This document shows positions 42,344-57,714 of a stretch of DNA of 61,011 bases, piece after piece. The position numbers and the translations under genes were made by a program. Position 1 is the stretch's first letter. Each line of letters begins with the position of its first letter. Below the pieces are notes generated by a model, which was given only the letters and a program-made list of their open reading frames with translations, was not told the DNA's origin and searched no databases. Where the stretch lies: positions 1 through 61,011 of IMG/VR virus record IMGVR_UViG_3300025000_000107, one strand, 5' to 3'. Source of the DNA: a virus (lineage: Duplodnaviria; Caudoviricetes).

Positions 42344-42837
42344 AACTCTCCGTTATCGTCGTCGTTATCTTCAGTCTCTGTCTCATCAGAGAACTCATCA
42401 GTTCCATCAACTACATCGAACTCATCAGCATTCGGATCACCACCAGTACCACCTGCATAAGCTACTAAGTCTACGATCTGGATAGCCTGAAGGTCAGCAC
42501 TCAACCCCTTCTTACCTTTATACTCCCAGGCATAAGGAGCAAACTGTACATTGACGATACTCCCATTACCTATAATACCATCGAAGGTGTTCTTCCCTGC
42601 ATCTACTACTCTGGGTGGTGGGTTCTTTCCGATAACCTCTTTACCCTTCTTCTTATCTACGTTACGTTTGAACTTGTACTCATAGACATCATCATCGTTC
42701 CGCTTTACCTTCAGCCCTATACCCTTCAGCTTCTTAGCCTCAGCATCTGACAGGAGAAGAGTTACCCTCCAGCAAGGATCGAACTTAGTATCAGGCTGTT
42801 TGGTGTAACTCCACATTGCGATTCCAGTAGTCTTCAT
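42340..42837 (-). CDS. single-stranded DNA-binding protein (T7 gp2.5-like)
   Basis: PRVVDA...IGNGSIVNV...LQAIQIVDLV; acidic tail ending in F. Confidence 0.85.
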   Translation of the reverse strand: MKTTGIAMWSYTKQPDTKFDPCWRVTLLLSDAEAKKLKGIGLKVKRNDDDVYEYKFKRNVDKKKGKEVIGKNPPPRVVDAGKNTFDGIIGNGSIVNVQFAPYAWEYKGKKGLSADLQAIQIVDLVAYAGGTGGDPNADEFDVVDGTDEFSDETETEDNDDDNGEF

Positions 42838-43361
42838 ATTGTAACTCCCATGTTTGATCTGATAGTCTTGATGATACGCTTCTTCATATAGCCAGTTTTC
42901 CTAATCGTTACTCCGGCTGCCTTAGCAACCTCAGCTTTAGGATCGCTGTGGACAATAAGCCCATAATAAATGATTCTATCCTGTGTATCTGTGGGTGCTA
43001 GTCCCTCTATGATCCCTTCGTTATCATCACCCTCCTCGTAGATATCCTCAGTTCTAGGCTCATCATCTGTCTCAACAACATTACAGAAAGGGACCTCCAT
43101 CTCTTCTTGTTTCTGTATCTTCTTTAAGAACCATATCATCTCATAGCGTATAGCATTAGATGCATAAGTATTAAACTGGAAGCCACGATCAGGGTCAAAC
43201 TTCAGTGATGCCTTACGTAAGGACACCATACCTATACCCATGAGATCATCTCGGTGGCTAGAGTACCTTCTGTTTCTTTCTCGTGATAGGAACTCATCTA
43301 CTACCACCTCAACCATTCCGAAGAATGTCTCACATAAGTCCTTACGTTCTTGATCTGTCAT
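42834..43361 (-). CDS. phage sigma-70-family RNA polymerase sigma factor
   Basis: Region 2 DDLMGIGMVSLRKASLKFDPDRGFQFNTYA; C-terminal HTH KAEVAKAAGVT. Confidence 0.8.
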   Translation of the reverse strand: MTDQERKDLCETFFGMVEVVVDEFLSRERNRRYSSHRDDLMGIGMVSLRKASLKFDPDRGFQFNTYASNAIRYEMIWFLKKIQKQEEMEVPFCNVVETDDEPRTEDIYEEGDDNEGIIEGLAPTDTQDRIIYYGLIVHSDPKAEVAKAAGVTIRKTGYMKKRIIKTIRSNMGVTI

Positions 43362-43501
43362 ATCTTCCTCTTAATTGTTAGCAACTTCCATATCTTAGGG
43401 CTCCTTAAGATATACGCATGATCAACCTCATTGTATGGTACTGTAATGATCTCTCTCCTACTACTACTGAGTGTATTAACTACGAGGAGGAACATCTTCA
43501 C
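43358..43501 (-). CDS. microprotein family member A1 (47 aa, ends LTIKRKI)
   Basis: Hand-translated MKMFLLVVNT...RREI...KLLTIKRKI; GTGA/ATGA overlaps. Confidence 0.6.
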   Translation of the reverse strand: MKMFLLVVNTLSSSRREIITVPYNEVDHAYILRSPKIWKLLTIKRKI

Positions 43502-43647
43502 AGCACCCTCCTCACCCTCAGCACCGCATAGACTTCAGGTCTGTTGTGTACAAACTCCTCTATATCTTTAGACATTGGTTGACCATACATACTTCTATTA
43601 AGTCTATTGTCATATACCCCAACAAACAACATGTACTTAAATTGCAT
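43498..43647 (-). CDS. microprotein family member A2 (49 aa, ends LRVRRVL)
   Basis: Hand-translated MQFKYMLFVG...NRSM...AVLRVRRVL; CACTATATAA upstream at 43660-43669. Confidence 0.6.
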   Translation of the reverse strand: MQFKYMLFVGVYDNRLNRSMYGQPMSKDIEEFVHNRPEVYAVLRVRRVL

Positions 43648-43671
43648 AGCCTATATTATTTATATAGTGTA

Positions 43672-43815
43672 TCATTGTATGAACTCCTTCACCTTTAGGA
43701 TCCTATAAGATTGTAATCCAGATTTAGACTTTAGAAAACGACGACTACCAATATCTGATATATGACAAATTATTTTCCTATTAGTAAATCCTATTATAAA
43801 CAATAGCTTCCTCAA
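43672..43815 (-). CDS. microprotein family member A3 (47 aa, ends LKVKEFIQ)
   Basis: TTG start overlapping HNH stop: MRKLLFIIGFTNRKI...ILKVKEFIQ. Confidence 0.5.
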   Translation of the reverse strand: MRKLLFIIGFTNRKIICHISDIGSRRFLKSKSGLQSYRILKVKEFIQ

Positions 43816-44282
43816 TGTACATCTCCCCAATTCTTTCCAGATAAGATACCAAGTGTTGATCCTTTCGGATAACCAAAAGATACTAAACACTTTAATCTAT
43901 AACCGATAGATATTAAGAATCTTATATCAATAACCTCATCTTCTACTAATAAAGATCTTGCATTCATTGAACCTTTAGCGCTTCTCCTCCCAGAATTATA
44001 AGAGTGTTTTATATTATCTCCATGAGATAACCACCTAAGATTATCAAGATTATTGTTTAACTTGTTTCCATCTATATGGTCTACATCTGATAGATGATAT
44101 GGGTTTGGTAGGTACACCTCAGCAACCAGCCTATGTATAGCTTTACATACCCTTCTCTTATCTGTATTAATGTTGACAATTAAATACCCTCTCCCATTAT
44201 CATAAGATTTAATAATACCACCAAACTTATTGAAAACTTCTCCATTAGTCGTAACATGATACGAGTAATAGTTCTGATCCAT
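43812..44282 (-). CDS. HNH homing endonuclease (HNH_3 type)
   Basis: IHRLVAEVYLPNP...VDHIDGNKLNNNLDNLRW...NIKH; CACTATATAG at 44341-44350. Confidence 0.9.
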   Translation of the reverse strand: MDQNYYSYHVTTNGEVFNKFGGIIKSYDNGRGYLIVNINTDKRRVCKAIHRLVAEVYLPNPYHLSDVDHIDGNKLNNNLDNLRWLSHGDNIKHSYNSGRRSAKGSMNARSLLVEDEVIDIRFLISIGYRLKCLVSFGYPKGSTLGILSGKNWGDVH

Positions 44283-44356
44283 AGTGCACCACCATTAGGT
44301 TTAGGTTATAACTCTTAAGATTATCCCTACGAACTATAACCTATATAGTGTATGGA

Positions 44357-45442
44357 TCAGTGAACGTCAGCCCACGTCATACCTATCTTCACATCAGCAT
44401 CTATAGGAGTAATTAGATTCAACTGGTCTTGAACCATATTAGCACCAAGTTTAATTATACGAGATGCTTCTTCTGCATGATCAGGAAGACACCTATAACC
44501 AGCCTCATCGTGGTATTCCAGCATTTGTCTGCAGTAGATTCCTGAACTTTCAATCATCCTATTTGTATTGATTAACCACATCTTGAATATAAGTGCAGCT
44601 GTACTTTGAATAGCTGTATTAAGAAGCTTATACTCTTGACGTACTTGAATTCTTCTACCATCGAGACCTACAATATACTTATTCTTCTTAAAGAATTTAG
44701 TAAGATAATCTACAATCATCTTGACTCCTAGATTACCAGACCAAAAGTTATCAATATATATCTCAGCTTGTTCTTCAGAGCACCCTAATATTCTCGAAAG
44801 CTTAGGTGCTCTAGCTCCGTAGAAGATCGCATATTGAAAACTTTTCGCAGTGTTTCTAGTACTTTGGATGAGGTCAGCGTTGTACTGATGAAGATCAGGA
44901 ACAGAGTTTATCACATCCCAATAGGCACCACCATCAAACAGTGAGGCCCAGTGTGCTGTGACCCTAGCCTCAATAGCCTTGAGGTCAGCACCTATCATTA
45001 CATAAGGTGCCCACACCCTGAAGAGGGACCGCATCTCAGTACCGTAGATTACTTTAGGGTCAGCCTTTGGTACATTACAGACAGCACCACTATGTGTAGT
45101 CCTGCCAGTAGGTGTAGCACATGGCATCCCTTCAGCAGATACCCTACCATCACTCCTTACCTTAGAAAGGATACCCTTATTCTCAGGGTCCTTTATGTTC
45201 TCGATGGTTCTCCTTCTATGTACAAGGACGTTCCTTCGAGCTACTAGTTGGCCTGTCTTACCTTGAATAGAGTCGAATGAATCCTCAGTTAGCTTAGGTG
45301 ATGTAGGTTCCTTAGTCTTCTTGTTATAGTTGAACTGAGTAGGAACCCAACCAACAGATAGTAAGAATGCTTTTACTTGTTCATGACTATTGAGGTTGAT
45401 TCGTTCGTACTTGATCTTACAATAAGGTCCTCGTATATTCAA
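44357..45442 (-). CDS. family A DNA polymerase, polymerase domain (T7-like)
   Basis: ATPTGR, motif A GADLKAIEAR, motif B AKSFQYAIFYG, motif C YHDE. Confidence 0.95.
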   Translation of the reverse strand: MNIRGPYCKIKYERINLNSHEQVKAFLLSVGWVPTQFNYNKKTKEPTSPKLTEDSFDSIQGKTGQLVARRNVLVHRRRTIENIKDPENKGILSKVRSDGRVSAEGMPCATPTGRTTHSGAVCNVPKADPKVIYGTEMRSLFRVWAPYVMIGADLKAIEARVTAHWASLFDGGAYWDVINSVPDLHQYNADLIQSTRNTAKSFQYAIFYGARAPKLSRILGCSEEQAEIYIDNFWSGNLGVKMIVDYLTKFFKKNKYIVGLDGRRIQVRQEYKLLNTAIQSTAALIFKMWLINTNRMIESSGIYCRQMLEYHDEAGYRCLPDHAEEASRIIKLGANMVQDQLNLITPIDADVKIGMTWADVH

Positions 45443-45446
45443 TTCA

Positions 45447-45608
45447 TTACCACCAAAAATGTAGTAAACATTTATCTATCTTGTTATCCTTTAAGAAAGC
45501 TATAAGATTAGGACAACCATCTTCATACTCTTCGTAATCCTCCTCTAACTCTCCCTCATCATTAATGAACCAATCGTCCTCATCATACACCTCAATCCAA
45601 AAGTTCAC
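45447..45608 (-). CDS. highly acidic 53-aa microprotein
   Basis: Hand-translated MNFWIEVYDEDDWFINDEGELEEDYEEYEDG...HFWW; GTGA overlap. Confidence 0.5.
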   Translation of the reverse strand: MNFWIEVYDEDDWFINDEGELEEDYEEYEDGCPNLIAFLKDNKIDKCLLHFWW

Positions 45609-45736
45609 ACCACCCTCTTAACCTTTAGTCCTATGAACGGGTCGATGTAGTAGTCCTTACAGCTACCTGTAGTTATACTTCTCGAAGAACTATCAGGGCT
45701 ACCTCTCCACATTATGATAAAGAACCACACACTCAT
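45605..45736 (-). CDS. microprotein family member B2 (43 aa, ends LKVKRVV)
   Basis: Hand-translated MSVWFFIIMW...SRSI...GLKVKRVV. Confidence 0.6.
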   Translation of the reverse strand: MSVWFFIIMWRGSPDSSSRSITTGSCKDYYIDPFIGLKVKRVV

Positions 45737-45942
45737 ATAGCCCTCTTTAGTTTTAGTGCCACACAATGCATCTCTGGATGGATGTAGTATCCTCCACCCC
45801 TGAAGTATCCTCTGGTTCTAGTACCTAGATTAGAGAGTGAGTGGATTGGGTAGACGCTTTTGCACATAGGATTCATATCTGATAAGAAATAAACACCATC
45901 CTTTAATCCCTCAACCTTATCTCGTATCATATAGAATATCAT
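45733..45942 (-). CDS. microprotein family member B3 (69 aa, ends LKLKRAI)
   Basis: ORF track; MIFYMI start; ATGA overlaps on both ends. Confidence 0.6.
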   Translation of the reverse strand: MIFYMIRDKVEGLKDGVYFLSDMNPMCKSVYPIHSLSNLGTRTRGYFRGGGYYIHPEMHCVALKLKRAI

Positions 45943-46076
45943 AGTCTCCTCTTAATCGTTAGCTTTCTCCACCTAGAGTACTCATCATCGTACAAACTAG
46001 CCGTGCTTACTGAGTATATATTCCTAGTGAAATCCTGATCACCGTACATCATCAGAAGGTGAAACGATTTCCTCAT
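45939..46076 (-). CDS. microprotein family member B4 (45 aa, ends LTIKRRL)
   Basis: Hand-translated MRKSFHLLMMYG...TRNI...KLTIKRRL; overlaps end of exonuclease ORF. Confidence 0.55.
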   Translation of the reverse strand: MRKSFHLLMMYGDQDFTRNIYSVSTASLYDDEYSRWRKLTIKRRL

Positions 46077-46776
46077 TAGCTATCCACTTCTTAGTGGCCT
46101 CATTATATGTTCCATCCTTCTTGAATGGTAGAGTCCCTATATCCAAGTTACCAACACCGATCACCCTCATAGGCATCACCTCATACAGCAGCTTATCCAA
46201 CTCAGCGATCTCAGTATCCATCCTGACTATCAGATCTTCAGCCAGCCCAACATCTATATCGACACCCTCGATCTCTTGAGCTGCACGATACATAGCGAAG
46301 TCTTGCTCTATCTCAAGAGACCTGATCCAGTTCCATGATTGACAGTACCTTTCTACTAGGTACTCATAGGTCATTACATTTATCTCTACATCCTCTGAGC
46401 ACCTGAACAACATATCCTCAGAGAACACTGACCAATCCTCATGTACTGGTTTGCTTCTCCTGAACTGCTCTCCGTATGACTCAAGAGAATGACCCCCGAA
46501 TCTCTCGGGATTAAATAGCTTGGACATACAGAGAGTATCCTTCAGCTTCTTATGAGTGAAGGATGGATACAACTTCTTGATAGCTGGTATATCAAACCCG
46601 CAGATGTTGTGTCCTACTATCTGCTCGGCACTACTAAGTAAGGCAAGGCCTTCCTCTATCTGATGTGGTCTGAACTTGAACACCTCTCTAGTCTTCAAGT
46701 CCTTAGCCACTATACAGTGTATGGTGTGGATATCATACAACAATCCGTTACCTTCTAAATCGAAAACGAGTCGCAT
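46039..46776 (-). CDS. DNA polymerase 3'-5' exonuclease domain (separate ORF)
   Basis: ExoI FDLEGNGL, ExoII GHNICGFD, HSLESYG, ExoIII RCSEDV. Confidence 0.9.
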   Translation of the reverse strand: MRLVFDLEGNGLLYDIHTIHCIVAKDLKTREVFKFRPHQIEEGLALLSSAEQIVGHNICGFDIPAIKKLYPSFTHKKLKDTLCMSKLFNPERFGGHSLESYGEQFRRSKPVHEDWSVFSEDMLFRCSEDVEINVMTYEYLVERYCQSWNWIRSLEIEQDFAMYRAAQEIEGVDIDVGLAEDLIVRMDTEIAELDKLLYEVMPMRVIGVGNLDIGTLPFKKDGTYNEATKKWIANEEIVSPSDDVR

Positions 46777-46822
46777 TATTTGTTGATACTTATTAAGTCT
46801 TTTAGAACCATGCTTAACTCCT

Positions 46823-46960
46823 CTATAGACGCCTCTTCACCTTCAGTGGATGGAAGCCTTCACGTGCTTTCGGAGCTGTTGGTTGTTGATAGATTCTAAT
46901 CTGTCTCATCATTGACCAGTGCCAATCATAGTACCCATACAGCATCGTGAAGTGTATCAT
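46823..46960 (-). CDS. microprotein family member C1 (45 aa, ends LKVKRRL)
   Basis: Hand-translated MIHFTMLYG...MRQI...PLKVKRRL. Confidence 0.6.
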   Translation of the reverse strand: MIHFTMLYGYYDWHWSMMRQIRIYQQPTAPKAREGFHPLKVKRRL

Positions 46961-47085
46961 AGCACCCTCTTAATCTTCAGCTCTACAAGTTTCTTCTTCA
47001 AGATAAACCCACCATGAGCTAAACCTAGACGCTGCTTTATAGGTTCTCCATGCCCAAGGTACATATGTGATTGTACATAGAACAT
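46957..47085 (-). CDS. microprotein family member C2 (42 aa, ends LKIKRVL)
   Basis: Hand-translated MFYVQSH...ELKIKRVL. Confidence 0.5.
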   Translation of the reverse strand: MFYVQSHMYLGHGEPIKQRLGLAHGGFILKKKLVELKIKRVL

Positions 47086-47143
47086 CCCTACCCATCCCGA
47101 TGGGTTTAGAGTATCACGTCAGGGCTTATTACAAAACCAGAAC

Positions 47144-48766
47144 TTAAAACTCGTCATCACAAAACTCCTCTTCAAGTTTACCTGACTCTCTGTTGTACCT
47201 CAATGGGATGTGACCAGTGTTACCACCTAATCTATCCTTGATGATAGATAACTTACACTTGTTCCTATCCTCTATAGACTCAGCTAACTGATCCCTACTC
47301 AGACCCCATAGTGCAGTAGAATACTTCCACTGTGCCCTACTACCAGAGAACTGTGATCCATATACCTCACCACCAGCACCATGATCCTTACCACCTGAAG
47401 GGTTATTAAGATGGTTAGCATGGAAGAATGTCAGTCCTTGCTCAACTCGAAACCTTCGCATATCACGCATCACCTTACCGAGTTCTTGATTACCTTCAGA
47501 TGCTGAGAGGTGCTCAACCAATGCAGATAAAGGATCAATAAAGAATATCCTGATACCCTTACTGGCGAAGTATCTGATATTATCCTTAACCTCTTCCCAA
47601 TCTTCAGTGAGTCCATCATAGAACTGCACCTTCCCATCGAGCAGCTCACCTATCCTACGTGCTTCATCTATGTCATACACACAGTCAGGTTTGTGGATAG
47701 GCTTGTTCATGATACCACCTATCAGGTGCTTCAATGCACCCTTAGCCTTCTCCTCGATATCAAAGACTGCAATGTTCTTATTGTGTACGAACATCAAGTG
47801 TTGTTGTATCTGCCTTACGAGGGTTGACTTGCCACCACCAGGAGCACCACCTATACCTATGATCTCCCCTTCATCTTCCTTAAGTCCATACGTGAGTTTC
47901 GTGAGTCTCTCAAAGGGATAAGACAAACCCCACGGAACAGGCTTAATAGTATCGTCCAGAATATCACATACAGCAACAATATTTGAAGGACGGTACTCAC
48001 GGGCGTTGAAGTAAGCATTGATGAACTCCTTCTGCTTTCCCTTTACCAGCATATCGCTGGAGTCTTTCTCTGAGAGGACTAAGACTCTAGCCTTCTCTCC
48101 AATGACGGGTGCATACTTAGCTACCGCTGCTCTACCAGCAGCATCCATGTCAGTAGCGATGATCACTTCCTCGAAGCCCTTCAGGAACTCGAGGTTCTCT
48201 GTGACTGTAGCCAATGAGGACTCCTCTCCTCTTGGCAACGATACTACCGCTGGCTCTACCTCTGGATACCTAGTCTTCAGCATCTCATAGGCAGCACACA
48301 TATCCTCCTCACCACCTACAATCAGCAGCTTCTTTGCAGTACGGGGGCAGCAGAACTGCCCACTATAATCCGGAACCTTCCCCTTCTGTTCTCCTATACT
48401 CGAGAACTTTTTAGGCAAGGATCTTTTCTTATACCCAATGAACTTACCCTGATGTGTCTCAGGATAATAGATCGCTACTGGTACACCTGTAGCTTCTGAT
48501 AACTCAGTCCTGATCTTGAAGTGTTTGTGTGTCTCAGCACTGACAAGCCTTTCAGGGTTACCATAAAACGGGAGGCTCTTTACTTCATCTATCTCCATCT
48601 CCCCTCCATTAGTAGGTGGTTTACATAACTCTCCGTCCCTTTCATAATAAGGAGGATGATAAGGTTTCAGACATGCTCGTGTTACACCATCCTTCATCAA
48701 CCATAAGTGATCTTTAGTTTTATCTCTACCAAGAGAAAAACATATAGGGCATTGGAGATTACTCAT
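47144..48766 (-). CDS. primase-helicase (T7 gp4-like)
   Basis: Zn finger CPIC, TOPRIM GGEEDM and DMD, Walker A GAPGGGKS, FFIDPL, KDR-x-GG. Confidence 0.95.
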   Translation of the reverse strand: MSNLQCPICFSLGRDKTKDHLWLMKDGVTRACLKPYHPPYYERDGELCKPPTNGGEMEIDEVKSLPFYGNPERLVSAETHKHFKIRTELSEATGVPVAIYYPETHQGKFIGYKKRSLPKKFSSIGEQKGKVPDYSGQFCCPRTAKKLLIVGGEEDMCAAYEMLKTRYPEVEPAVVSLPRGEESSLATVTENLEFLKGFEEVIIATDMDAAGRAAVAKYAPVIGEKARVLVLSEKDSSDMLVKGKQKEFINAYFNAREYRPSNIVAVCDILDDTIKPVPWGLSYPFERLTKLTYGLKEDEGEIIGIGGAPGGGKSTLVRQIQQHLMFVHNKNIAVFDIEEKAKGALKHLIGGIMNKPIHKPDCVYDIDEARRIGELLDGKVQFYDGLTEDWEEVKDNIRYFASKGIRIFFIDPLSALVEHLSASEGNQELGKVMRDMRRFRVEQGLTFFHANHLNNPSGGKDHGAGGEVYGSQFSGSRAQWKYSTALWGLSRDQLAESIEDRNKCKLSIIKDRLGGNTGHIPLRYNRESGKLEEEFCDDEF

Positions 48767-49394
48767 ATGATTCCAAATACTTAGCAGCCTTAATGCAAGT
48801 ATCTTTAGAGTCTTTTAAGAATCCTATACCAGAGTTACAAGAATTGCATAACAACCCTCGGGCTTTTCCAGTATCATGGTCATGATCTATGGAGAACATC
48901 TCAATAAAATCTATACCACATATAGCACATTTTCCAACTTGAGAAATTATCATATCCTCTAACTCCTGCTCAGTTATATTGAAGACCTTAAGTCTTCGTC
49001 TGAAGTTAGTCTCGTTATAGCCTTCTGTACCCTTATAAGATTCTCTATTTCTTATTATCCTATCTGCATTCACCTTAACATAGGTAGCATCGTACTCTCT
49101 TTTCCATTCTACATAACCAGGATCTGACCTCTTCCAAAGTGAGTGACATTTCTTAGAACAAAACTTAGTCCTTTTAGGACCCCTCTTAGCTTGTACAATA
49201 ACCTCTCCACATATACAACATATCCCAGTTGTAGCTGTCTTGCATAGATCAACACACTCCTCTCCAGCTCTTCTAGCAAACCCAGCCTCTTCCTTGTCCT
49301 TATAAGACCCTAGGTTCACACAACCAAGACTAGATCTTATAGACGCTTTCCATCTTTTCCTTGCCTTATTCCAATGAACACCTTTCATAATCAT
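48759..49394 (-). CDS. AP2-domain + endonuclease VII HNH homing endonuclease
   Basis: GVHWNKARKRWKASI...LGSYKDKEEA (AP2); CAICG...IDHDHDTGKARGLLCNSCN; CACTATATAG at 49431-49440. Confidence 0.85.
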   Translation of the reverse strand: MIMKGVHWNKARKRWKASIRSSLGCVNLGSYKDKEEAGFARRAGEECVDLCKTATTGICCICGEVIVQAKRGPKRTKFCSKKCHSLWKRSDPGYVEWKREYDATYVKVNADRIIRNRESYKGTEGYNETNFRRRLKVFNITEQELEDMIISQVGKCAICGIDFIEMFSIDHDHDTGKARGLLCNSCNSGIGFLKDSKDTCIKAAKYLESYE

Positions 49395-49507
49395 CCCTCC
49401 AGTTGAATTAAAATATAAACCCTTTAAGGTCTATATAGTGATCACGTTACTGAAGTGATAATTATAGGGATCAGTTACACATAAACTCCCCACACTCAGG
49501 GCAAGCT

Positions 49508-49642
49508 TTATTCATACCTCCTCTTCACCTTTAACCTGATAGAGCAATTAAGACCATAATATATAGTAGATATCTTTCTGTTATTTGTTGGGAACCACCA
49601 ATTAGAACCCGGCTTATTATGTAGGATATAGAAGCACCTCAT
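49508..49642 (-). CDS. microprotein family member D1 (44 aa)
   Basis: MRCFYILHNKPGSNWWFPTNNRKI...RLKVKRRYE. Confidence 0.65.
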   Translation of the reverse strand: MRCFYILHNKPGSNWWFPTNNRKISTIYYGLNCSIRLKVKRRYE

Positions 49643-49785
49643 AGTTTCCTCTTAATCCTTAAGATAATATACAAACTCTGCTCTCCTTCTATAACCTCCT
49701 CCTCTATCATAACCCTTCTTTGGTTACACTCCCACCACCTAGTAGGGTCTGATGCACACCATAAGATAACCCAAAGGTTTGTCAT
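49639..49785 (-). CDS. microprotein family member D2 (48 aa)
   Basis: MTNLWVILWCASDPTRWWECNQRRV...LYIILRIKRKL. Confidence 0.65.
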   Translation of the reverse strand: MTNLWVILWCASDPTRWWECNQRRVMIEEEVIEGEQSLYIILRIKRKL

Positions 49786-49931
49786 ACCCTTCTCTTTATA
49801 TGTAGTATGATGTATATCGGAACAGAGTATCCTAGTGGATAAGGCCTCTCCTTGTATGCCCTAAGACTTCTATTAAAACTAGGATCCCAATACGTGGGTT
49901 CCTCCTTTGAGTATAGTATCAGGTATCTCAC
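49782..49931 (-). CDS. microprotein family member D3 (49 aa)
   Basis: MRYLILYSKEEPTYWDPSFNRSL...IYIILHIKRRV. Confidence 0.65.
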   Translation of the reverse strand: MRYLILYSKEEPTYWDPSFNRSLRAYKERPYPLGYSVPIYIILHIKRRV

Positions 49932-50074
49932 AAAACCCTCCTAACCATTAGGTATATATAGAGGAACTTGTCCGTATCAGTATGAGTGCATGCTTTATCA
50001 GCACACAACCTCCTCTGATTCCCCTCATACCAGAAGCTAGCATCATCTGTACAATGAAGTATTACGTACACCAT
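49928..50074 (-). CDS. microprotein family member D4 (48 aa)
   Basis: MVYVILHCTDDASFWYEGNQRRL...LYIYLMVRRVL. Confidence 0.65.
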   Translation of the reverse strand: MVYVILHCTDDASFWYEGNQRRLCADKACTHTDTDKFLYIYLMVRRVL

Positions 50075-50252
50075 ATATCACCCTCTTCACTTTCAGTCTT
50101 TTCATATCCCTAACACCACCTCTCATACTCCACGTAAATGAGATAGCTGTGTCATGGTGTTGATCACCATCCCTTATCCTGTAGAACGACCCAACCTTAT
50201 CGTTTAACTCAGGACACTCAGGTCGTATAGAGGTTCTGATAAAGAATACCAT
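50043..50252 (-). CDS. microprotein family member D5 (69 aa)
   Basis: MVFFIR...RLKVKRVI plus short extension; TAATG-coupled to GATase. Confidence 0.6.
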   Translation of the reverse strand: MVFFIRTSIRPECPELNDKVGSFYRIRDGDQHHDTAISFTWSMRGGVRDMKRLKVKRVIYGVRNTSLYR

Positions 50253-51190
50253 TAGTTATACATCCCTTGATAGTCCTGCCACGCTTCCTCCTGTTCTGCT
50301 ATGGCAGCTACTTTCTTAGCAGCTATAGCTTTCTCTTTGTTCAACTGGATGTTAGCTTCGGTAAGGTACTTGGCCATGGTTGTCTTGTTCTTATTGCTTA
50401 CAGCACCAGCCTTCTCAAGAGACTTCTTACACTCTTCACAAACCAACATGATAGGTGCATCCTTATCCTCATAGGCATGCATGTCCTTGATCTGAAAGGG
50501 TTGGTTGCAATACTCGCAGTCCTCCCTAGTGAAAGCATTGATAGACCATGCTGCTGTGTTGACTGTTGAATTCGGAAGGGTCCTGGGCTGTGCATTGTAG
50601 TGACCCTGATATCCACCGTACTTAGTGGTGTATACAGGACGTTCCTTGTAGGAGTCATTGCTCATCCAGATACCTTCATGCCAGTGACCCTTCTTCTCGT
50701 TGAAGATGAATCCCTCACCACTGATGCTCAAGACTGCCAGCTTAGATGCACCGATGAATTCCTCTATCAGCATAGCGATTGCAGGATTATACAACCACCC
50801 TTCAGGCATCTCACGGAGGACCTCTTCATTAAACATTCTTGTATCAGACTTATCAGCGTGGCGAGATACACCACCGATGATTCCATTGTGAATGAACACA
50901 GTGTCCTCGTCTATCATAAATGGGTGGCAGTTGGCTATATCTTTCTGACCATGCGTCTTGATCCTGAAGTGTACAAGGAATGCAGAGTCAGGGGCTATAC
51001 GAGTTGCCCTCTCATACTGCTTATAGAATGGTGCGAACTCCATACTCTTGTACATCTTAATACGTTTGACTCCCAGATGGTCCGTGTTAATGTACGCAAA
51101 GCCAGCTCCATCCGGGTTGCTATTGAAGCAAGTTCTGAGGGTTGCTTCAGTGAGTACTCTTCCTGCTGGTTTGAATATCGCAATACACAT
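50252..51190 (-). CDS. class II (Ntn) glutamine amidotransferase
   Basis: N-terminal MC, NPDGAG, HFRIKTHG, NCHPF, HNGII, SDT. Confidence 0.9.
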   Translation of the reverse strand: MCIAIFKPAGRVLTEATLRTCFNSNPDGAGFAYINTDHLGVKRIKMYKSMEFAPFYKQYERATRIAPDSAFLVHFRIKTHGQKDIANCHPFMIDEDTVFIHNGIIGGVSRHADKSDTRMFNEEVLREMPEGWLYNPAIAMLIEEFIGASKLAVLSISGEGFIFNEKKGHWHEGIWMSNDSYKERPVYTTKYGGYQGHYNAQPRTLPNSTVNTAAWSINAFTREDCEYCNQPFQIKDMHAYEDKDAPIMLVCEECKKSLEKAGAVSNKNKTTMAKYLTEANIQLNKEKAIAAKKVAAIAEQEEAWQDYQGMYN

Positions 51191-51191
51191 A

Positions 51192-51359
51192 TTATAGTTT
51201 CCTTTTTATTGTAAGAATTATATAGAAGTTACTGGTACTCTTTCCCGGTAAGCATGTGGGGCAGCAGAATACAAACCAACTAGGCCTATTGTCATAGCAC
51301 CTGAAGTACATGCTGGTATGCTCTTCAACCTTTGCCCCACAATTATGGCATTTAATCAC
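51192..51359 (-). CDS. microprotein family member E with Zn finger (55 aa)
   Basis: Hand-translated MIKCHNCG...CCPTC...FYIILTIKRKL. Confidence 0.55.
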   Translation of the reverse strand: MIKCHNCGAKVEEHTSMYFRCYDNRPSWFVFCCPTCLPGKSTSNFYIILTIKRKL

Positions 51360-53074
51360 TCAACAAATTTAGCCACAAGTACAGACCCGTTCGGGTAAGT
51401 CTTGCTGTTGTGTGCCATAAACTCCCGGAACTTATCGAGATCTTTCGAGTGTGAGATAGGTGCCTCACGTTCGAAGGAGATCAGTGCATGAAGGAACTCC
51501 ACCTTGCTTCTCAGTTCGAAGTCAGTAACACAACCAGCAAACAGTCGGAACTCTACTGTTGCTTTATTTGTCAGGTTAACCATAGCCCGACGCTCAGTGT
51601 TGCCTGACTTACTATCCTTCAGGTGCCTTGAGGGTTTAGTCTTCAGCCCCGCACAGTAACCATTGAATGAACGACCAGCTACATAGGTGGTGAAGCTCGG
51701 ACAGCTATGAAGGAAGTTGATCACCTTATACAGATGAACTTCCGACTGGAAACCATCACGACCTACATGGATGTGAAGACCACAGCTGGAATCCTTCTTG
51801 AGTTTACCAGGAAGGAGAGGTCCGAGGTCAAGCTGATGGAAGTAGAGGAGAGACATGGGCTGAGATACAACCTCATACCCATAGCCATCAATACTGCCAT
51901 CACTCTTAGCTACCAGTACCGTAGGATCGTAGCTCTTATACAGGTTCTTCAACCCATTGTTACGGTTGCCATCATCCCTACCAAAGGTACACTCATTCTC
52001 AAAGCCAAAGAACACATTACCACGCTTGATCTCTTTGTCCTTGATATAGTTGTAGAAGATCTTCGGCTTGTGACTGTAGCTGTAGATACCCATACTATTA
52101 CATACCCTACAGTGACTCTCATGATCTCGGATCATACCACAAGAACACTTGTTGTTGATATAAACCCTCTTACATGTCTGACAATACTCTCCACTACCAG
52201 CAAACAGGGAGGAGCAGTTAGCACACTCCTTCTTGTCAGCACAACTGGGGCATACACAGTGGACCTTGGACGCACCCTTAACGAACGTCTTCATGGAGGA
52301 CTTGTAGTTGTTACCACAAGCATCACACTCCATTACGTTCTTGTTTTTACAAGACTGACACATGTACTCTGAGTGATTGTCACCATTCTCATCCATGAAT
52401 ACTACAGACTTGATGTTCGGTTCCTTCTTGTGGCACACTCCGCACATCTTGAAACCGTTCCAACACTTTTCACAATACTTTTTAGGATGCTCCTGCCCTT
52501 CAGTGCAAGAGTATTTCTTACCGCAATGGACACACTCCTCAATCTCATACAGTTTGAAGTGTCGCTTCTTCTCCTCGAAGCACTCGGAGCACACCTGATT
52601 ACCGTACTTACGGAAGATGCCAGCTCTACGCATACCCTCAAGGCTGGTGTTCAGTACGATGGTGTCCTTCCTCTTATAGGTGTTGCAGCACCCACACATC
52701 TTATACTTCGTGGAGATGCACGAGGTGCATATCATCTCACCGTTGATATCCCTGAGTGCAGCTTCGGGTTTCTGCTGACCACAACACTCGCAGGTTGCAA
52801 ATGAGGCCATACATTCACGGCAGTAGTGCTCACCATTACCTGTATGAGTAGTCTCGGATGCAAGCACAGCTTTCTGACAACCAGAGCATACCTTCAGCAG
52901 GGAGTAACATCGTTCACAGTAGGGACCGATCTCGATATCAGGGTAGTCTTCATTGAACAGGACTACCCGAAAGTTAGGATCGGTGATTTCAGTACCACAG
53001 TTGAGGCAAGGACAAGGGGTAGCAGTAGGCATAATTTTGTTTTCCTTCAATAAATGATTTTTGTTTTTCCACAC
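51356..53074 (-). CDS. putative amidoligase (COOH-NH2 ligase) with long N-terminal CxxC array
   Basis: FFGFENE, KSDGSI...EVVSQP, SCGLHIHV, TVEFRLF; likely start at MPTATP. Confidence 0.85.
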   Translation of the reverse strand: MWKNKNHLLKENKIMPTATPCPCLNCGTEITDPNFRVVLFNEDYPDIEIGPYCERCYSLLKVCSGCQKAVLASETTHTGNGEHYCRECMASFATCECCGQQKPEAALRDINGEMICTSCISTKYKMCGCCNTYKRKDTIVLNTSLEGMRRAGIFRKYGNQVCSECFEEKKRHFKLYEIEECVHCGKKYSCTEGQEHPKKYCEKCWNGFKMCGVCHKKEPNIKSVVFMDENGDNHSEYMCQSCKNKNVMECDACGNNYKSSMKTFVKGASKVHCVCPSCADKKECANCSSLFAGSGEYCQTCKRVYINNKCSCGMIRDHESHCRVCNSMGIYSYSHKPKIFYNYIKDKEIKRGNVFFGFENECTFGRDDGNRNNGLKNLYKSYDPTVLVAKSDGSIDGYGYEVVSQPMSLLYFHQLDLGPLLPGKLKKDSSCGLHIHVGRDGFQSEVHLYKVINFLHSCPSFTTYVAGRSFNGYCAGLKTKPSRHLKDSKSGNTERRAMVNLTNKATVEFRLFAGCVTDFELRSKVEFLHALISFEREAPISHSKDLDKFREFMAHNSKTYPNGSVLVAKFVE

Positions 53075-53118
53075 ACTGTCCTCTCAACCACATGAGAGTA
53101 TGTTCCTAGTGTGTAGTG

Positions 53119-53346
53119 TTATAAAACTTTCTTTACTTTTAATCTTATAGACTGATCAAATCTTATACCCCAATCACCATCTCTATCTGAGTTGATGTCG
53201 AAGTAGTCTTCATACACTTGTGTTCGATCTGTAGGAATAATACTCCTAGTCAAATGATTCATATCATATACCCATGACCATACACCCCAATAGTCAGCAT
53301 CATCATCATCTCGGCAATAGTGATTCCCTATGAAAAATTCCATCAA
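53119..53346 (-). CDS. microprotein family member F (75 aa, ends LKVKKVL)
   Basis: MMEFFIG...TRSII...IRLKVKKVL. Confidence 0.6.
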   Translation of the reverse strand: MMEFFIGNHYCRDDDDADYWGVWSWVYDMNHLTRSIIPTDRTQVYEDYFDINSDRDGDWGIRFDQSIRLKVKKVL

Positions 53347-53528
53347 ATTATCCTGGCAAGTCTACCCCTATCGGTGACAGCATTAGAGGACTTGAGAAGA
53401 TCAACAGTCTCTCTATCTATCAGGTACAAAGAACCCTGTACTCCACCTACAGAGTCAGTACCCAACTTAGGAGCACCTTCAACTCTCCTCTCGGAGAACA
53501 CAACATAAGTACAATCCTTACAACCCAT
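53343..53528 (-). CDS. hypothetical protein
   Basis: Overlapping small ORF. Confidence 0.45.
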   Translation of the reverse strand: MGCKDCTYVVFSERRVEGAPKLGTDSVGGVQGSLYLIDRETVDLLKSSNAVTDRGRLARII

Positions 53529-53736
53529 TATAATCCCTCCTAATTTTGAATACCTTAAAGCGTCTCATATCATCTAGACGTTCTTCATGACAAGCTTTTC
53601 CTACCCCATCATCCTCCCATGAATAATACCCATAATGTTTTATTCCGCTATCCTCTACATTGATCATACAAAAACAGTTCCAGAAAGGCTTAGCCGTTGG
53701 GTATACAGGGGTGAAGATACCTATCTCCCACATCAA
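53518..53736 (-). CDS. small protein, possible divergent family member (VFKIRR)
   Basis: AGGAG RBS; FKVFKIRR near C-terminus. Confidence 0.5.
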   Translation of the reverse strand: MMWEIGIFTPVYPTAKPFWNCFCMINVEDSGIKHYGYYSWEDDGVGKACHEERLDDMRRFKVFKIRRDYNGL

Positions 53737-53806
53737 CTAATCTCCTACTATATAGTCCTGTAGAAGCGTAAATCTACAGTCCCATAATTCAACAAAAGGT
53801 ATCATA

Positions 53807-54283
53807 ATGAAAGTCCTCACTGAAGAACAGAAGTTAAATAACAAAGAGTACCAAAAAGCTTATCGTCTTGCAAATAAAGATAGGCTTAAAGAGTATGACC
53901 ACTTCAGATACCACCGAGATAAAGATGTCTACAATGGTAAGCGTAGACAACATAGAGCAGAAAACCCTGAATTATATGCTGAAGCTTATAAAGATAACAA
54001 AGATGTTAGAAATTACAGAACAGTTAAGTATAGAAGAAAGAATTCTTATGGAACAGATGAGCACACAATTCAGAAGATGATGGACGAGCAAAGAGGATGT
54101 TGTAAGATATGCGGAGACTCTTTAGTTCATCCAGGTTCTTTAAAATCCTTCTCAATAGATCATTGTCATACTACAGGATCTGTGAGAGGTTTACTTTGCT
54201 CTAGATGCAATCTAACATTAGGTGGAGTACACGACAGCGTGAATCTCCTTCAATCTATGATAGATTACCTTGAGGCGAGTTGA
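53807..54283 (+). CDS. endonuclease VII-family HNH homing endonuclease
   Basis: QRGCCKICG...IDHCHTTGSVRGLLCSRCN; TACTATATAG at 53746-53755; opposite to flanking genes. Confidence 0.85.
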   Translation: MKVLTEEQKLNNKEYQKAYRLANKDRLKEYDHFRYHRDKDVYNGKRRQHRAENPELYAEAYKDNKDVRNYRTVKYRRKNSYGTDEHTIQKMMDEQRGCCKICGDSLVHPGSLKSFSIDHCHTTGSVRGLLCSRCNLTLGGVHDSVNLLQSMIDYLEAS

Positions 54284-55053
54284 ATAATAGCGTTAGTGTA
54301 GGCTTCTAATGTCGCTCCTTCTAAACCTGGAGCGGTATTAGCCTCAAATATCTTAGGGCTATTAAGACTGAGGGCGATATCCAAAGCGGCGAACTGTAAA
54401 CCTAAAGCAGCTACAGCAGCTATAGCAGCGTCCCTTGCACTGTCAGGGATGGTGACTCCTTCACGGGCAAAGACCCATCCGTTCCCATGTGATCTCACAT
54501 CGTTGCTGTAGGTGATACCATCATCTGCCATACGTTCCTCACTCATCTTCTTCTTCTGAGCAAAGGAGATCATCTCCCCATTGAAGATGTGAAGACGGAC
54601 CTCACGACGACGAGGACATTTAGCCGTGTAAAGTGGGGCAGTTACGAGATCATCTACCCTGTTAGCCACCACGACACCTCTGCCCTGGCTTGATCTGGTA
54701 AGTGTCCGGCAGTACACAGTAATACCAGACTCCACCCAAGCTTTTGCTACATCAAGATCGGAAGTAAACCCAGGTATGTTGTCTGACATACCAGAATCCC
54801 TCAGTTTTTCGAATGTCTTCGTCTTGTCTGAGGCGATGATTACAGCAGTAGGGTCGTTCAACATGGTAAACTCTGGTCGAACAGCCTTCCGAGTGTGAGA
54901 CCCCCAGTTGAGAATGAGATGACTAGCTGAACCACGATAGGAGCTGTTGTCATACTTCATCCGCTTGACGTTGGCTCCACGAGCACGGAGAGTAGCAATT
55001 AGACTTGTGATAGAGTCACTCGGTCCATATGGGTTGATTCGAATTACTTTCAT
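54265..55053 (-). CDS. ATP-grasp ligase
   Basis: ILNWG, ASDK, SSQGRG, EVRLHI, RSHGNG, FAALD, IFEANTAPG. Confidence 0.85.
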   Translation of the reverse strand: MKVIRINPYGPSDSITSLIATLRARGANVKRMKYDNSSYRGSASHLILNWGSHTRKAVRPEFTMLNDPTAVIIASDKTKTFEKLRDSGMSDNIPGFTSDLDVAKAWVESGITVYCRTLTRSSQGRGVVVANRVDDLVTAPLYTAKCPRRREVRLHIFNGEMISFAQKKKMSEERMADDGITYSNDVRSHGNGWVFAREGVTIPDSARDAAIAAVAALGLQFAALDIALSLNSPKIFEANTAPGLEGATLEAYTNAIIQLASR

Positions 55054-57603: not shown

Positions 57604-57714
57604 GTTTAAAACAGGTTTATACCTTTGTCTGATAGTTTGGTATTAGTTCGGATCAACACTCACTATATAGCTTATAAATTGCAGAACAATATTAATTTTA
57701 ATACGGAGCTTATC

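What the first reader, a model, noticed from the sequence alone, without database searches (positions are those of the whole stretch)
43358..53736. Dispersed arrays of ~15 paralogous hypervariable microproteins with constant termini
Hand translation of the apparent gaps on the - strand shows chains of 42-75 aa ORFs joined by ATGA/GTGA/TAATG overlaps: 43358-43815 (3), 45605-46076 (3), 46823-47085 (2), 49508-50252 (5), 51192-51359, 53119-53346, and possibly 53518-53736. Nearly all start with a short hydrophobic strand (FYIL, WVIL, YLIL, FFII, FLLV), many have a central (N)-x-R-x-[ILV], and they end in L-x-[VI]-[KR]-R-x-h: LTIKRKI, LRVRRVL, LKVKEF, LKVKRVV, LKLKRAI, LTIKRRL, LKVKRRL, LKIKRVL, LKVKRRY, LRIKRKL, LHIKRRV, LMVRRVL, LKVKRVI, LTIKRKL, LKVKKVL. 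The middles are mostly unrelated, and one carries a Zn finger. Codons vary synonymously (CTA/CTG/TTA/CTT; GTT/GTG/ATT/ATA), which points to protein-level selection. The KR codons (AAG AGG) often double as the next gene's Shine-Dalgarno, which would make each unit a self-coupling cassette. Inference: a diversified library of small effectors (anti-defence or host-takeover binders) or subunits that co-assemble through shared terminal beta-strands. I do not recognise a named family.
Basis: partly seen in the sequence, partly recalled or inferred. Interest (0 to 1): 0.9.

Follow-up and report, generated by a model that had tools for sequence, protein, structure and literature searches.

The report
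Phage arrays of paralogous 45-residue proteins
An uncultivated groundwater phage carries about sixteen copies of a previously undescribed family of tiny beta-strand proteins, strung between its DNA replication genes, and whole gene units are gained and lost at the short shared sequence that joins one gene to the next.

Summary
On the - strand between 43358 and 53736, 14 ORFs of 42-75 aa carry L-x-[VIL]-[KR]-[KR]-x-h, and 12 of them stop right after it. Three hundred shuffles of the region gave 1.3 motifs and 0.07 motifs with a stop. These are real genes: dN/dS is 0.26 in the called frame and 1.1 in the other two. They form a family of about 45 aa with a shared scaffold: an N-terminal strand, a conserved W, a conserved R and a C-terminal strand. 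A Zn-ribbon member links to the core by profile comparison.

The family was found only in this small phage clade. A profile search of 1.84 billion representative proteins gave 12 hits, all from the clade. Pfam, PHROGs, PDB and fold searches gave nothing.

Part of the "constant terminus" is imposed by the gene junction. K-R is the AAGAGG Shine-Dalgarno of the next gene, and the last residue is fixed by the NTATGA overlap. The L, V/I and upstream aromatic residues are held at the protein level.

Arrays sit in fixed slots between core genes. Copy number per slot ranges from 0 to 7 among close relatives, and the indel breakpoints fall inside the junction. Orthologues are under purifying selection, not diversifying selection.

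Function is untested. I infer accessory binders of host factors. Translation has not been shown.

The parts
53518..53736 (-). 72-aa divergent member, slot A (ATP-grasp to amidoligase). It ends FKIRRDY+3, and the next ORF's ATG lies inside its tail.
   Evidence: Related to two L005 slot-A ORFs (31% and 26% identity). Not detected by the core HMM.
53119..53346 (-). 75-aa long member, slot A. It ends LKVKKVL then TAA. The SD is degenerate here (AAGAAA), yet the basic tail is kept.
   Evidence: About 32-35% identity to two L005 slot-A ORFs. Core HMM E = 4.9, i.e. only the termini are shared.
51192..51359 (-). 55-aa Zn-ribbon member (CxxC...CxxC), slot B, between amidoligase and GATase. GTGA overlap upstream, TAATATG downstream.
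   Evidence: Alignment A2 has invariant C4, C7, C33, C36 and W28. hhalign against the core family: 88.7% probability, E = 2.6e-6, 44 columns. AF2 gives a hairpin plus a third strand, pLDDT 68.
50043..50252 (-). 69-aa member, slot C. It has an internal LKVKRVI and then 10 more codons because the usual ATGA reads ATGG. It overlaps the next member by 32 nt.
   Evidence: Core HMM E = 0.29.
49928..50074 (-). 48-aa core member, slot C.
   Evidence: Identical to P0003.
49782..49931 (-). 49-aa core member, slot C, GTG start in a GTGA overlap.
   Evidence: Identical to P0005.
49639..49785 (-). 48-aa core member, slot C. First sequence of alignment A1 and the one modelled.
   Evidence: (three strands at 4-8, 25-28 and 39-42; pLDDT 70.7). 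52-54% identity to L005 and L003 orthologues.
49508..49642 (-). 44-aa core member, last of slot C. It ends LKVKRRYE.
   Evidence: Identical to P0009.
46957..47085 (-). 42-aa divergent member, slot D (primase to polymerase exonuclease part).
   Evidence: Its C-terminal 31 aa are 39-48% identical to L003/L005 slot-D ORFs. Core HMM E = 3.9.
46823..46960 (-). 45-aa core member, slot D. It ends LKVKRRL then TAG, followed by 46 nt before the exonuclease gene.
   Evidence: 50% identity to L003 4676-4816.
45939..46076 (-). 45-aa core member, slot E (between the exonuclease and polymerase parts of the split DNA polymerase). Its start overlaps the exonuclease gene by 38 nt.
45733..45942 (-). 69-aa member with a long middle, slot E. 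It ends LKLKRAI.
   Evidence: Not detected by the core HMM.
45605..45736 (-). 43-aa core member, slot E (ATG at 45736 in an ATGA overlap). It ends LKVKRVV in GTGA.
   Evidence: Identical to P0012.
45447..45608 (-). 53-aa acidic ORF coupled into the slot E array. Its N-terminus resembles the family, but it lacks the C-terminal motif. Possibly a degenerate member.
   Evidence: By eye only; no HMM hit.
43672..43815 (-). 47-aa member, slot F. Its TTG start overlaps the HNH stop (TTGA). It ends LKVKEFIQ.
43498..43647 (-). 49-aa core member, slot F.
43358..43501 (-). 47-aa core member, slot F. Its stop overlaps the ATG of the sigma-70 region-2-like gene (ATGA).

Best explanation
These are real genes for a clade-restricted family of very small proteins. 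The core is about 45 aa, and longer members carry a longer loop. The predicted scaffold has three beta strands: an N-terminal hydrophobic strand, a loop with a conserved Trp, a conserved Arg leading into strand 2, a variable loop, and a C-terminal strand [YF]-[IT]-x-L-[KR]-[VI]. A free basic tail follows. The Zn-ribbon copy at 51192-51359 is probably a relative of the Cys-less majority.

The 'constant C-terminus' is a composite. The strand is held by selection on the protein. The last four residues (K/R-R-x-h) are written by the next gene's Shine-Dalgarno (AAGAGG), a 5-nt spacer and the ATGA/GTGA stop-start overlap. Each unit therefore carries the signal that restarts translation on the next one, and the strings are coupled into the replication-gene operons.

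The family has expanded by tandem duplication inside six fixed slots between conserved core genes. Because junctions are alike, unequal crossovers within them add or remove whole units in frame. This explains why copy number differs among near-identical strains.

Inferred, not shown: the proteins are dispensable accessory factors. Each paralogue has its own conserved loop and acts by binding a host macromolecule, or possibly a phage one, during the replication phase (host takeover or counter-defence).
For: Shown:
- The motif is non-random: 14 motifs and 12 motif-plus-stop in the region, against 1.32 and 0.073 in shuffles.
- Coding is supported. In 12 orthologue pairs dN/dS is 0.26 in frame and 1.14 and 1.13 in the other frames; the primase control gives 0.15-0.23.
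- pS in the last 8 codons is 0.40, against 0.41 in the middle, so there is no extra nucleotide-level constraint on the tail.
- The shared scaffold appears in 30 aligned members. AF2 predicts three strands at pLDDT 70.7.
- The Zn-ribbon copy links to the core by hhalign at 88.7%, E = 2.6e-6.
- At the motif, Leu uses 5 codons and Val/Ile 5 or more, with low third-position information. The K and R codons have high third-position information, as expected for an SD. Position -10 is aromatic in 28 of 50 junctions.
- Gene order shows fixed slots with variable copy number. Primase to exonuclease holds 2, 4, 5 or 7 units; GATase to primase holds 5, about 6, 6 or 0.
- Indels span exact units, with 30-39 nt matching both flanks and chimeric junctions at the breakpoints.
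- Similar pairs at E <= 1e-3 are 51 same-slot and 4 different-slot.
- L002 lacks the whole six-unit array of L003 between flanks that are 99.9% and 96.5% identical. This shows dispensability.
- Restriction to the clade: 12 of 1.84e9 representatives, all from the clade, and 0 matches in the 60-kb genome of the 58%-identity relative.

Inferred: the binder function. It rests on small size, paralogue-specific loops under purifying selection (dN/dS 0.39), dispensability, and a position like that of the small genes among T7 replication genes (recalled).
Against: - There is no evidence of transcription or translation. No RNA run holds the sequence.
- The fold models are only moderately confident (pLDDT 68-71) and match nothing.
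- Six to seven of the roughly 16 window members are not recognised by the core HMM. They are joined to the family mainly through their termini and slot-mates.
- Small ORFs of the 70% and 58% relatives share the terminal pattern but show no profile similarity (1.4% and 3.7%). The termini could therefore persist, or arise, without shared descent.
- Nothing ties any member to a host target or a defence system. The host is unknown.
- All relatives come from closely numbered metagenome records, so the comparisons sample one narrow population.
Confidence: 0.6

Rival explanations
1. The conserved feature is the junction, a translational-coupling and recombination element. The ORF bodies are interchangeable filler whose peptide products have no function of their own. 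They merely carry ribosomes from one core gene to the next.
For: K-R-x-h is dictated by the SD, spacer and overlap. The tail changes to K-E or K-V-K-E with the SD wording in L006, and to K-R-R in L004. L004 and L006 small ORFs share the termini but have no profile similarity to the core. Crossovers fall in the junction. Junction windows are 46-53% identical, against 26-27% for internal windows.
Against: dN/dS is 0.26 in frame, 0.21 on the scaffold and 0.39 even in the loop. Synonymous divergence in the last 8 codons equals that elsewhere. W, R and the aromatic at -10 are conserved and lie outside any SD. Array-terminal members with no coupled downstream gene keep the motif, for example 53119-53346 with a degenerate SD. 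Large genes couple to their neighbours without this motif.
Confidence: 0.1
2. The proteins are subunits that assemble with each other into homo- or hetero-oligomeric beta sheets through the shared terminal strands. Translational coupling sets their stoichiometry.
For: A 45-aa three-strand sheet with no helix is unlikely to be stable alone (inference). The N- and C-terminal strands are the most conserved parts. ATGA coupling is typical of complex subunits (general knowledge).
Against: The number of units per slot varies from 0 to 7 among strains whose flanks are 96-99.9% identical. This is hard to reconcile with a fixed hetero-complex. Homo-oligomers are not excluded.
Confidence: 0.15
3. They are small basic nucleic-acid-binding proteins, derived from a Zn-ribbon, that modulate phage or host replication or transcription.
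For: Median pI is 9.7 and median net charge +4. Trp makes up 3.8% of residues, against 1.3% in the large proteins. An Arg is conserved. A Zn-ribbon relative exists. The genes lie among primase and polymerase genes, and one is coupled directly to a sigma-70 region-2-like gene.
Against: Without the SD-imposed last seven residues the median net charge is only +1, and 5 of 30 members are acidic or neutral, with pI 4.7-6.7. No known nucleic-acid-binding fold or family matched.
Confidence: 0.15
4. They are precursor or substrate peptides of the neighbouring ATP-grasp, amidoligase and class-II glutamine amidotransferase enzymes. This would be RiPP-like: constant recognition ends and a variable core.
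For: Slots A-C flank these three genes. Constant termini with a variable middle is the usual layout of precursor-peptide families (recalled).
Against: The Pfam hits for the three enzymes are all below the curated cut-offs. The same enzyme cluster stands in Pseudomonas phage NV1 and in UFV-P2, and NV1's small ORFs lack the motif. Most members lie next to primase and polymerase genes instead. No conserved acceptor residue occurs in the variable part. Loops are conserved between orthologues in the way folded proteins are.
Confidence: 0.06

Closest known systems
PeSL-bounded ORFan cassettes in the hyperplastic regions of T4-type phages (Arbiol et al. 2010, PMC2839356, abstract read; Comeau et al. 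2014, PMC4122927, start of abstract seen in the search listing)
   Same: Small non-essential genes sit in variable blocks between conserved core genes. Insertions, deletions and replacements between close relatives arise by recombination between short conserved regulatory repeats at the cassette borders. Here the breakpoints lie in the repeated junction.
   Different: A PeSL is a promoter plus a terminator stem-loop in non-coding DNA, and the cassettes are unrelated ORFans. Here the repeat is coding sequence plus the SD plus the stop-start overlap. The cassettes are paralogues of one family. Promoter- and terminator-like sites are not above shuffled expectation.
Small ORFs between the exonuclease and polymerase parts of the split DNA polymerase in LUZ24-like phages and Vicosavirus (Pseudomonas phage NV1, NC_042107; UFV-P2, PMC3890496, passages read)
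   Same: The core gene order is the same: amidoligase, GATase, ATP-grasp, primase-helicase, exonuclease part, several small ORFs, polymerase part.
   Different: NV1's small ORFs are 67-142 aa, unrelated to each other by eye, and none ends in the motif. The primase is only 32% identical.
Small host-directed proteins encoded among T7 replication genes, such as gp2, gp5.5, gp5.7 and gp5.9 (recalled, not checked here)
   Same: They are small, often dispensable products interleaved with replication genes that bind single host proteins. This is the functional analogy behind my inference.
   Different: The T7 proteins are not paralogues of one another. No sequence or fold relation was found here.
Zn-ribbon mini-proteins and their Cys-less paralogues, e.g. 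the C+/C- forms of small ribosomal proteins (recalled)
   Same: One member has CxxC...CxxC around a beta hairpin, and the other members look like Cys-less relatives.
   Different: There was no significant match to any Zn-ribbon structure. The best Foldseek hit had E = 2.1.

Membership tests
Any Pfam-A or PHROGs family | Profile match at or near the family threshold | tested here: not met
   Ten window members were scanned against Pfam and PHROGs at E <= 1. Only isolated hits at E of 0.09 or weaker appeared. Thirty members against PHROGs at E <= 0.1 gave four families with one member each.
Any protein with a solved or predicted structure in the libraries | Significant sequence or fold match | tested here: not met
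   The PDB sequence profile search had a best E of 0.1. Foldseek against PDB and BFVD gave 0 matches at E <= 0.001 for both models.
Zn-ribbon | Two CxxC knuckles flanking a beta hairpin | tested here: met
   This applies to 51192-51359 only. C4, C7, C33 and C36 are invariant in 5 of 5 aligned sequences, and the hairpin at 16-22/25-30 is predicted. The core family has no conserved Cys, so it does not meet this feature.
PeSL-type mobile regulatory cassette | Sigma-70 promoter plus terminator stem-loop at each cassette border | tested here: not met
   There were 27 promoter-like sites against 31.9 +/- 6.3 in shuffles, and 11 terminator-like sites against 7.6 +/- 2.6. None is placed regularly at junctions. 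Units abut by 4-nt overlaps.
PeSL-type mobile regulatory cassette | Indels between close relatives with breakpoints inside the repeated border element | tested here: met
   At three indels, 30-39 nt of one genome match both flanks of the other, and the junctions are chimeric.
RiPP-like precursor peptide family | Co-occurrence with, and dependence on, a modifying enzyme; conserved recognition part; core with modifiable residues | tested here: inconclusive
   The genes are adjacent to ATP-grasp, amidoligase and GATase genes. The same enzyme cluster occurs in NV1 without the family, and no conserved acceptor residue stands in the variable loop. Modification itself cannot be tested here.
Translationally coupled operon units | Stop-start overlap with an SD inside the upstream ORF at functional spacing | tested here: met
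   Of 50 non-identical junctions, 37 end in TGA, mostly as ATGA or GTGA. AAGAGG or AGGAGG lies 5 nt before the start. Actual re-initiation cannot be tested with these tools.

The most novel reading that the evidence does not exclude
One junction word of about 20-25 nt encodes three things at once: the family's last strand and tail, the ribosome-binding site, and the stop-start overlap. Any unequal crossover between two junctions therefore yields an in-frame, still-coupled array. This would be an accordion that needs no integrase, letting a phage population expand, contract and re-sort a library of mini-binders. Each paralogue would keep its own loop against its own host target, most plausibly a defence or takeover target.
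Probability: 0.3. Interest if true: 0.75.

Novelty: new variant of a known kind. Interest (0 to 1): 0.58.

Why it matters
About one in six ORFs of this 61-kb phage belongs to a single protein family of about 45 aa. The family was not found outside this clade among 1.84 billion representative proteins searched.

The locus shows cleanly how a translational-coupling signal can masquerade as a conserved protein terminus. It also shows how such a signal can serve as the crossover point for whole-gene gain and loss. This bears on how phage accessory (ORFan) genes are born, duplicated and discarded.

If the members prove to be host-directed binders, the family would be a natural minimal scaffold with a variable loop. 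That would be of interest for counter-defence biology and for protein engineering.

Tried and rejected
- Diversifying selection between orthologues: rejected. dN/dS is 0.26 overall and 0.39 in the loop.
- Movement of cassettes between slots: little support. Four of 55 similar pairs are in different slots.
- Programmed frameshift or read-through joining the units: considered by eye. There is no slippery site, and the +1 frame closes after a few codons. I dropped it.
- Homodimer prediction: no verdict. It is not used either way.
- ESM Atlas: no usable hit for the 48-aa member. For the 75-aa member there were only unnamed clusters at 0.90 or below, and structure rows with TM of 0.42 or below from a poor model.
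- Word-indexed protein search with A1: only 4 proteins, all from this clade.
- RNA evidence: no RNA holder is listed.
- Laying DNA contigs of runs X1 and X3: the window's phage sits at about 10x, and more abundant relatives cover parts of the core genes. Several 'skip' joints have short sides (27-53 letters) at 85% likeness. They are too weak to use, and parts without cover are not interpreted.
- Rfam at gathering threshold and ARAGORN on the whole window: nothing.
- Sigma-70 promoter and terminator scans: at chance.
With up to 1 mismatch, 16 copies against 9.55 +/- 2.9 expected, and 2 of 100 shuffles reached 16. I did not pursue it.
- Metagenome scan with the exonuclease protein: one more contig of the L005 type (L012), a copy of L003 (L013), a short 83%-identity contig (L014, not examined), and distant phages. 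Of the distant ones I examined L016, L018 and L022, which have no family members.
- Literature: four full-text searches found no description of such a family. This covers only the held library. Supplementary files were not consulted.

Full report
What the window is. The 61,011-b window is a whole IMG/VR virus record, estimated 98% complete. It has no near match among 50,697 deposited phage genomes. Its primase-helicase (47144-48766, - strand) is only 31-35% identical to those of LUZ24-like, Vicosavirus and other podophages. The runs that hold the sequence are groundwater metagenomes from one study. Genes on the + strand up to about 32.7 kb look structural. The finding lies in the leftward replication module.

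Checking the observation. A strict six-frame scan for L.[VIL][KR][KR].[LIVYFM] found 24 hits in the window. Fourteen lie on the - strand between 43361 and 53142, all in frame near the ends of ORFs of 42-75 aa. Twelve are followed directly by a stop. One is followed by Glu and then a stop. One (50076-50096) runs on for ten codons because the usual ATGA reads ATGG. The ten hits elsewhere are scattered over both strands, many contain stops, and none is followed by a stop. Three hundred dinucleotide-preserving shuffles of 43358-53736 gave 1.32 +/- 1.13 motifs (max 5) and 0.073 motif-plus-stop (max 1). In a greedy list of 91 strand-consistent ORFs of at least 40 aa, 13 are flagged as family and none of the other 78 ends in the motif. 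Those 78 include the large genes whose stops overlap the next start. Two more members have variant ends. One is 43672-43815, whose TTG start overlaps the HNH stop. The other is 53518-53736. The window therefore holds about 16 members, roughly 2.6 kb in all.

Are they genes? Three close relatives were recovered with the primase as bait: L002, L003 and L005, at 89, 87 and 85% primase identity. They carry many more such ORFs on the primase strand. For 12 orthologous pairs between these relatives, Nei-Gojobori dN/dS is 0.26 in the called frame (pS 0.413, pN 0.141). Reading the same alignments in the other two frames gives 1.14 and 1.13. The primase control gives 0.15-0.23. No orthologue in those pairs has a frameshift or internal stop. 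The ORFs are therefore protein-coding and under purifying selection that is only slightly weaker than on the primase. Direct evidence of expression is lacking, because no RNA run holds the sequence.

What the family looks like. Thirty members of about 45 aa align over their whole length (A1). The shared features are an N-terminal hydrophobic strand (consensus M-x-x-F-x-I-L), a Trp about 15 residues in, an Arg present in at least 90% of rows, a loop that varies in length and composition, and [YF]-x-x-L-K-V-K-R-x-L at the end. AlphaFold2 on this alignment predicts three strands (4-8, 25-28, 39-42) with a free six-residue tail, at pLDDT 70.7. There is a common scaffold, and the variable part is mainly the loop between strands 2 and 3. 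A local HMM built from A1 hits only the array frames among 1,331 six-frame ORFs of the window and nine loci. Thirty-five hits have E <= 1e-7, though most were training sequences. The longer members (55-85 aa) score weakly and are tied to the family by their termini and their slot-mates. The Zn-finger member is real: four Cys and a Trp are invariant in five aligned sequences. Its profile matches the core family at 88.7% probability, E = 2.6e-6, over 44 columns. AF2 gives a hairpin between the two knuckles plus a third strand, at pLDDT 68. I read the Cys-less majority as relatives of a Zn-ribbon. Members are mostly basic (median pI 9.7, net +4). About three of those charges sit in the last seven residues. 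Five of 30 members are acidic or neutral. Trp is three times as frequent as in the large proteins.

How much of the constant terminus is protein and how much is signal? Across 50 non-identical junctions from four genomes, the Leu at -7 uses five codons (CTA, TTA, CTG, CTT, TTG). The Val/Ile at -5 uses at least five codons. Third-position information at those codons is low (0.7 and 0.3 bits). An aromatic residue stands at -10 in 28 of 50 junctions, well upstream of any ribosome-binding site. In contrast, the K and R codons are almost always AAG/AGG and AGG/AGA, with high third-position information. They spell the GAGG-type Shine-Dalgarno 5 nt before the next start. The last residue is hydrophobic because its codon is NTA or NTG in NTATGA or NTGTGA. 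The second residue of each protein likewise starts with A, from the ATGA overlap. Synonymous divergence in the last eight codons (pS 0.40) equals that in the middle (0.41), so nucleotide-level constraint beyond the amino acids is weak. A relative at 58% primase identity (L006) has small ORFs in the same positions that end I-x-L-K-E-K or L-K-V-K-E, with an AAGGAG or AAAGAG Shine-Dalgarno. A relative at 70% (L004) has h-x-L-K-R-R. The tail therefore follows the wording of the ribosome-binding site, while a hydrophobic-x-Leu strand before it persists. Those L004 and L006 ORFs show no profile similarity to the core family (1.4% and 3.7% probability). The core HMM finds nothing in the complete 60-kb genome that holds L006. 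Either they have diverged beyond recognition, or the same junction rule has shaped unrelated small ORFs. I cannot tell which.

Genomic organisation and turnover. The core genes are collinear in the window, L002, L003 and L005. The order is ATP-grasp-like, amidoligase-like, GATase-like, primase-helicase, polymerase exonuclease part, polymerase part, then a sigma-70 region-2-like gene. Identities are 66-92% at the protein level and 68-85% at the nucleotide level. The microgenes occupy the six gaps between these genes. The content of the gaps differs. Between primase and exonuclease the window has 2 units, L005 has 4, L002 has 5 and L003 has 7. Between GATase and primase the window has 5, L003 has 6 and L005 about 6. 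L002 has none there and carries an endonuclease gene instead, although its flanks are 99.9% and 96.5% identical to L003. That also shows those six genes are dispensable. Between the window and its relatives the slot contents are mostly unalignable at the DNA level, although the flanks are about 80% identical. The best protein pairs are only 43-54% identical, against 85-87% for the primase. That is more divergence than the measured dN/dS would predict, so replacement by paralogues or bursts of change have occurred. Three indels among the relatives span exactly one or two units. In each, 30-39 nt of the shorter genome match both flanks of the longer one, and the junction of the shorter genome is a chimera of the two junctions. 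Junction windows of 39 nt are 46-53% identical within a genome, against 26-27% for internal windows, with exact runs of up to 26 nt. Among 55 members, similar pairs at E <= 1e-3 are 51 within the same slot and 4 between slots. The picture is old dispersal to six slots, followed by tandem duplication and unit-precise loss within each slot through crossovers in the junction. It is not free shuffling between slots.

Translational coupling. Within arrays the units abut by ATGA or GTGA. Several arrays are also coupled to the core genes:
- The amidoligase-like gene ends in a GTGA that starts the Zn-ribbon member.
- That member ends TAATATG at the GATase start.
- GATase ends TAATG at the first slot-C unit.
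- The last slot-F unit ends in the ATGA of the sigma-like gene.
- The HNH gene ends in a TTGA that starts 43672-43815.
Promoter-like and terminator-like sites are not above shuffled expectation in the region, and no Rfam family or tRNA is present. The units thus belong to the replication-gene operons. Re-initiation itself has not been shown.

Comparison with what is known. No member matches Pfam or PHROGs, PDB sequences, or PDB and BFVD folds. An exhaustive profile search of 1.84 billion representative proteins gave 12 hits at E <= 1e-3. All are 42-49 aa. Ten are identical to members from the window, L003 or L005, and two are near-identical to such members. No longer protein contains the module. 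Pseudomonas phage NV1, a named distant relative, has the same core order: the amidoligase, GATase and ATP-grasp cluster, and a polymerase split by seven small ORFs. Its small ORFs neither resemble each other nor end in the motif. UFV-P2 is annotated with the same three enzymes (PMC3890496, passages read). The closest described behaviour is the modular shuffling of ORFan cassettes between promoter-terminator repeats (PeSLs) in T4-type hyperplastic regions (PMC2839356, abstract read; PMC4122927, listing only). Here the repeated border is coding and translational rather than transcriptional, and the cassettes are paralogues. Four full-text searches found no description of such a family. Supplements were not seen.

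Most likely mechanism and rivals. The anatomy described above is shown. The function is inferred. These are small, dispensable proteins, and each paralogue keeps its own loop under purifying selection (dN/dS 0.39 in the loop against 0.21 on the scaffold). They are made together with the replication genes. This resembles the small host-directed proteins interleaved with T7 replication genes (recalled). I therefore favour accessory binders of host macromolecules, or possibly phage ones, at about 40%. The description itself I put at about 90%. The rivals are:
- Junction-only filler (about 10%). It is contradicted by dN/dS and by the conserved W, R and aromatic residues.
- Co-assembling subunits (about 15%). 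A fixed hetero-complex is hard to square with 0-7 units per slot.
- Nucleic-acid binders (about 15%). Most of the positive charge is the imposed tail.
- Substrates of the neighbouring ATP-grasp, amidoligase and GATase enzymes (about 6%). The enzyme cluster exists without the family in NV1.

Verdict. This is a new, clade-restricted microprotein family arranged in translationally coupled arrays, with unit-precise gain and loss at a junction that does triple duty. That makes it a new variant of the known theme of phage accessory cassettes. Function and expression remain to be shown.

Noticed in passing
window 44357-46776 (-); L003 4946-7328; L005 13151-16065; L006 11966-14310; L011 8625-12852: The family-A DNA polymerase is split into a 245-aa exonuclease ORF and a 361-aa polymerase ORF, with 3-4 small ORFs between them. 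This holds in the window and in every relative down to 58% primase identity, and also in named phage NV1, which has 7 small ORFs there. A more distant relative (L016) has an unsplit 657-aa gene.
   Followed up: partly
L005 10001-12455; L012 845-3299; L002 1820-3442: In L005 and L012 the primase-helicase is in two ORFs (311 and 247 aa) separated by a 177-aa ORF. That ORF's best window match is the HNH_3 gene at 43812-44282 (35% identity). In L002 the gene is in two ORFs (285 and 224 aa) about 90 nt apart. The window and L003 have it whole. This may be an intron, a homing insertion or an assembly error; I did not resolve it.
   Followed up: no
L002 1129-1973 vs L003 1275-2284: Two nearly identical strains (flanks 99.9% and 96.5% identical) differ here. 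L003 has a six-unit microgene array where L002 has a 206-aa endonuclease-VII-like gene. The first ~140 nt of the primase gene also fail to align, as would happen with co-conversion during homing.
   Followed up: partly
window 48759-49394 (-), 53807-54283 (+), 55919-56533 (+), 57625-58341 (+), 43812-44282 (-): There are several free-standing homing-type endonuclease genes. Two match Endonuclease_7 (E = 4e-19 and 2e-21) and one matches HNH_3 (E = 1e-9). Two more + strand ORFs share the same C-terminal Cys/His pattern by eye. Three lie antisense among - strand genes.
   Followed up: partly
window 50252-55053 (-): The ATP-grasp (RimK-like), Amidoligase_2-like (572 aa with a Cys-rich N-terminal half) and class-II GATase-like genes all give Pfam hits below the curated cut-offs. 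They stand in the same order as the annotated cluster of LUZ24-like phages and NV1. Their function in phages is unknown to me.
   Followed up: partly
window 42834-43361 (-): A 175-aa protein has a Sigma70_r2 match (E = 1e-5, just above the cut-off). It is translationally coupled to the last microgene.
   Followed up: no
window 49477-49519 (-): A 14-codon ORF with a CPEC motif starts at an ATG inside the tail of the last slot-C unit. It may be the remnant of a Zn-ribbon-type unit.
   Followed up: no
window 43660, 44341, 49431 (-) and 71, 26362, 55873, 57661 (+): CACTATATAG has 6 exact copies, several in intergenic positions next to arrays and endonuclease genes. With up to one mismatch there are 16 copies against 9.6 expected, and 2 of 100 shuffles reached 16.
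   Followed up: partly
L005 7256-7423: The Zn-ribbon unit of L005 appears frameshifted relative to L002/L003, although the surrounding DNA is about 91% identical. It may be a pseudogene or a sequencing error.
   Followed up: no
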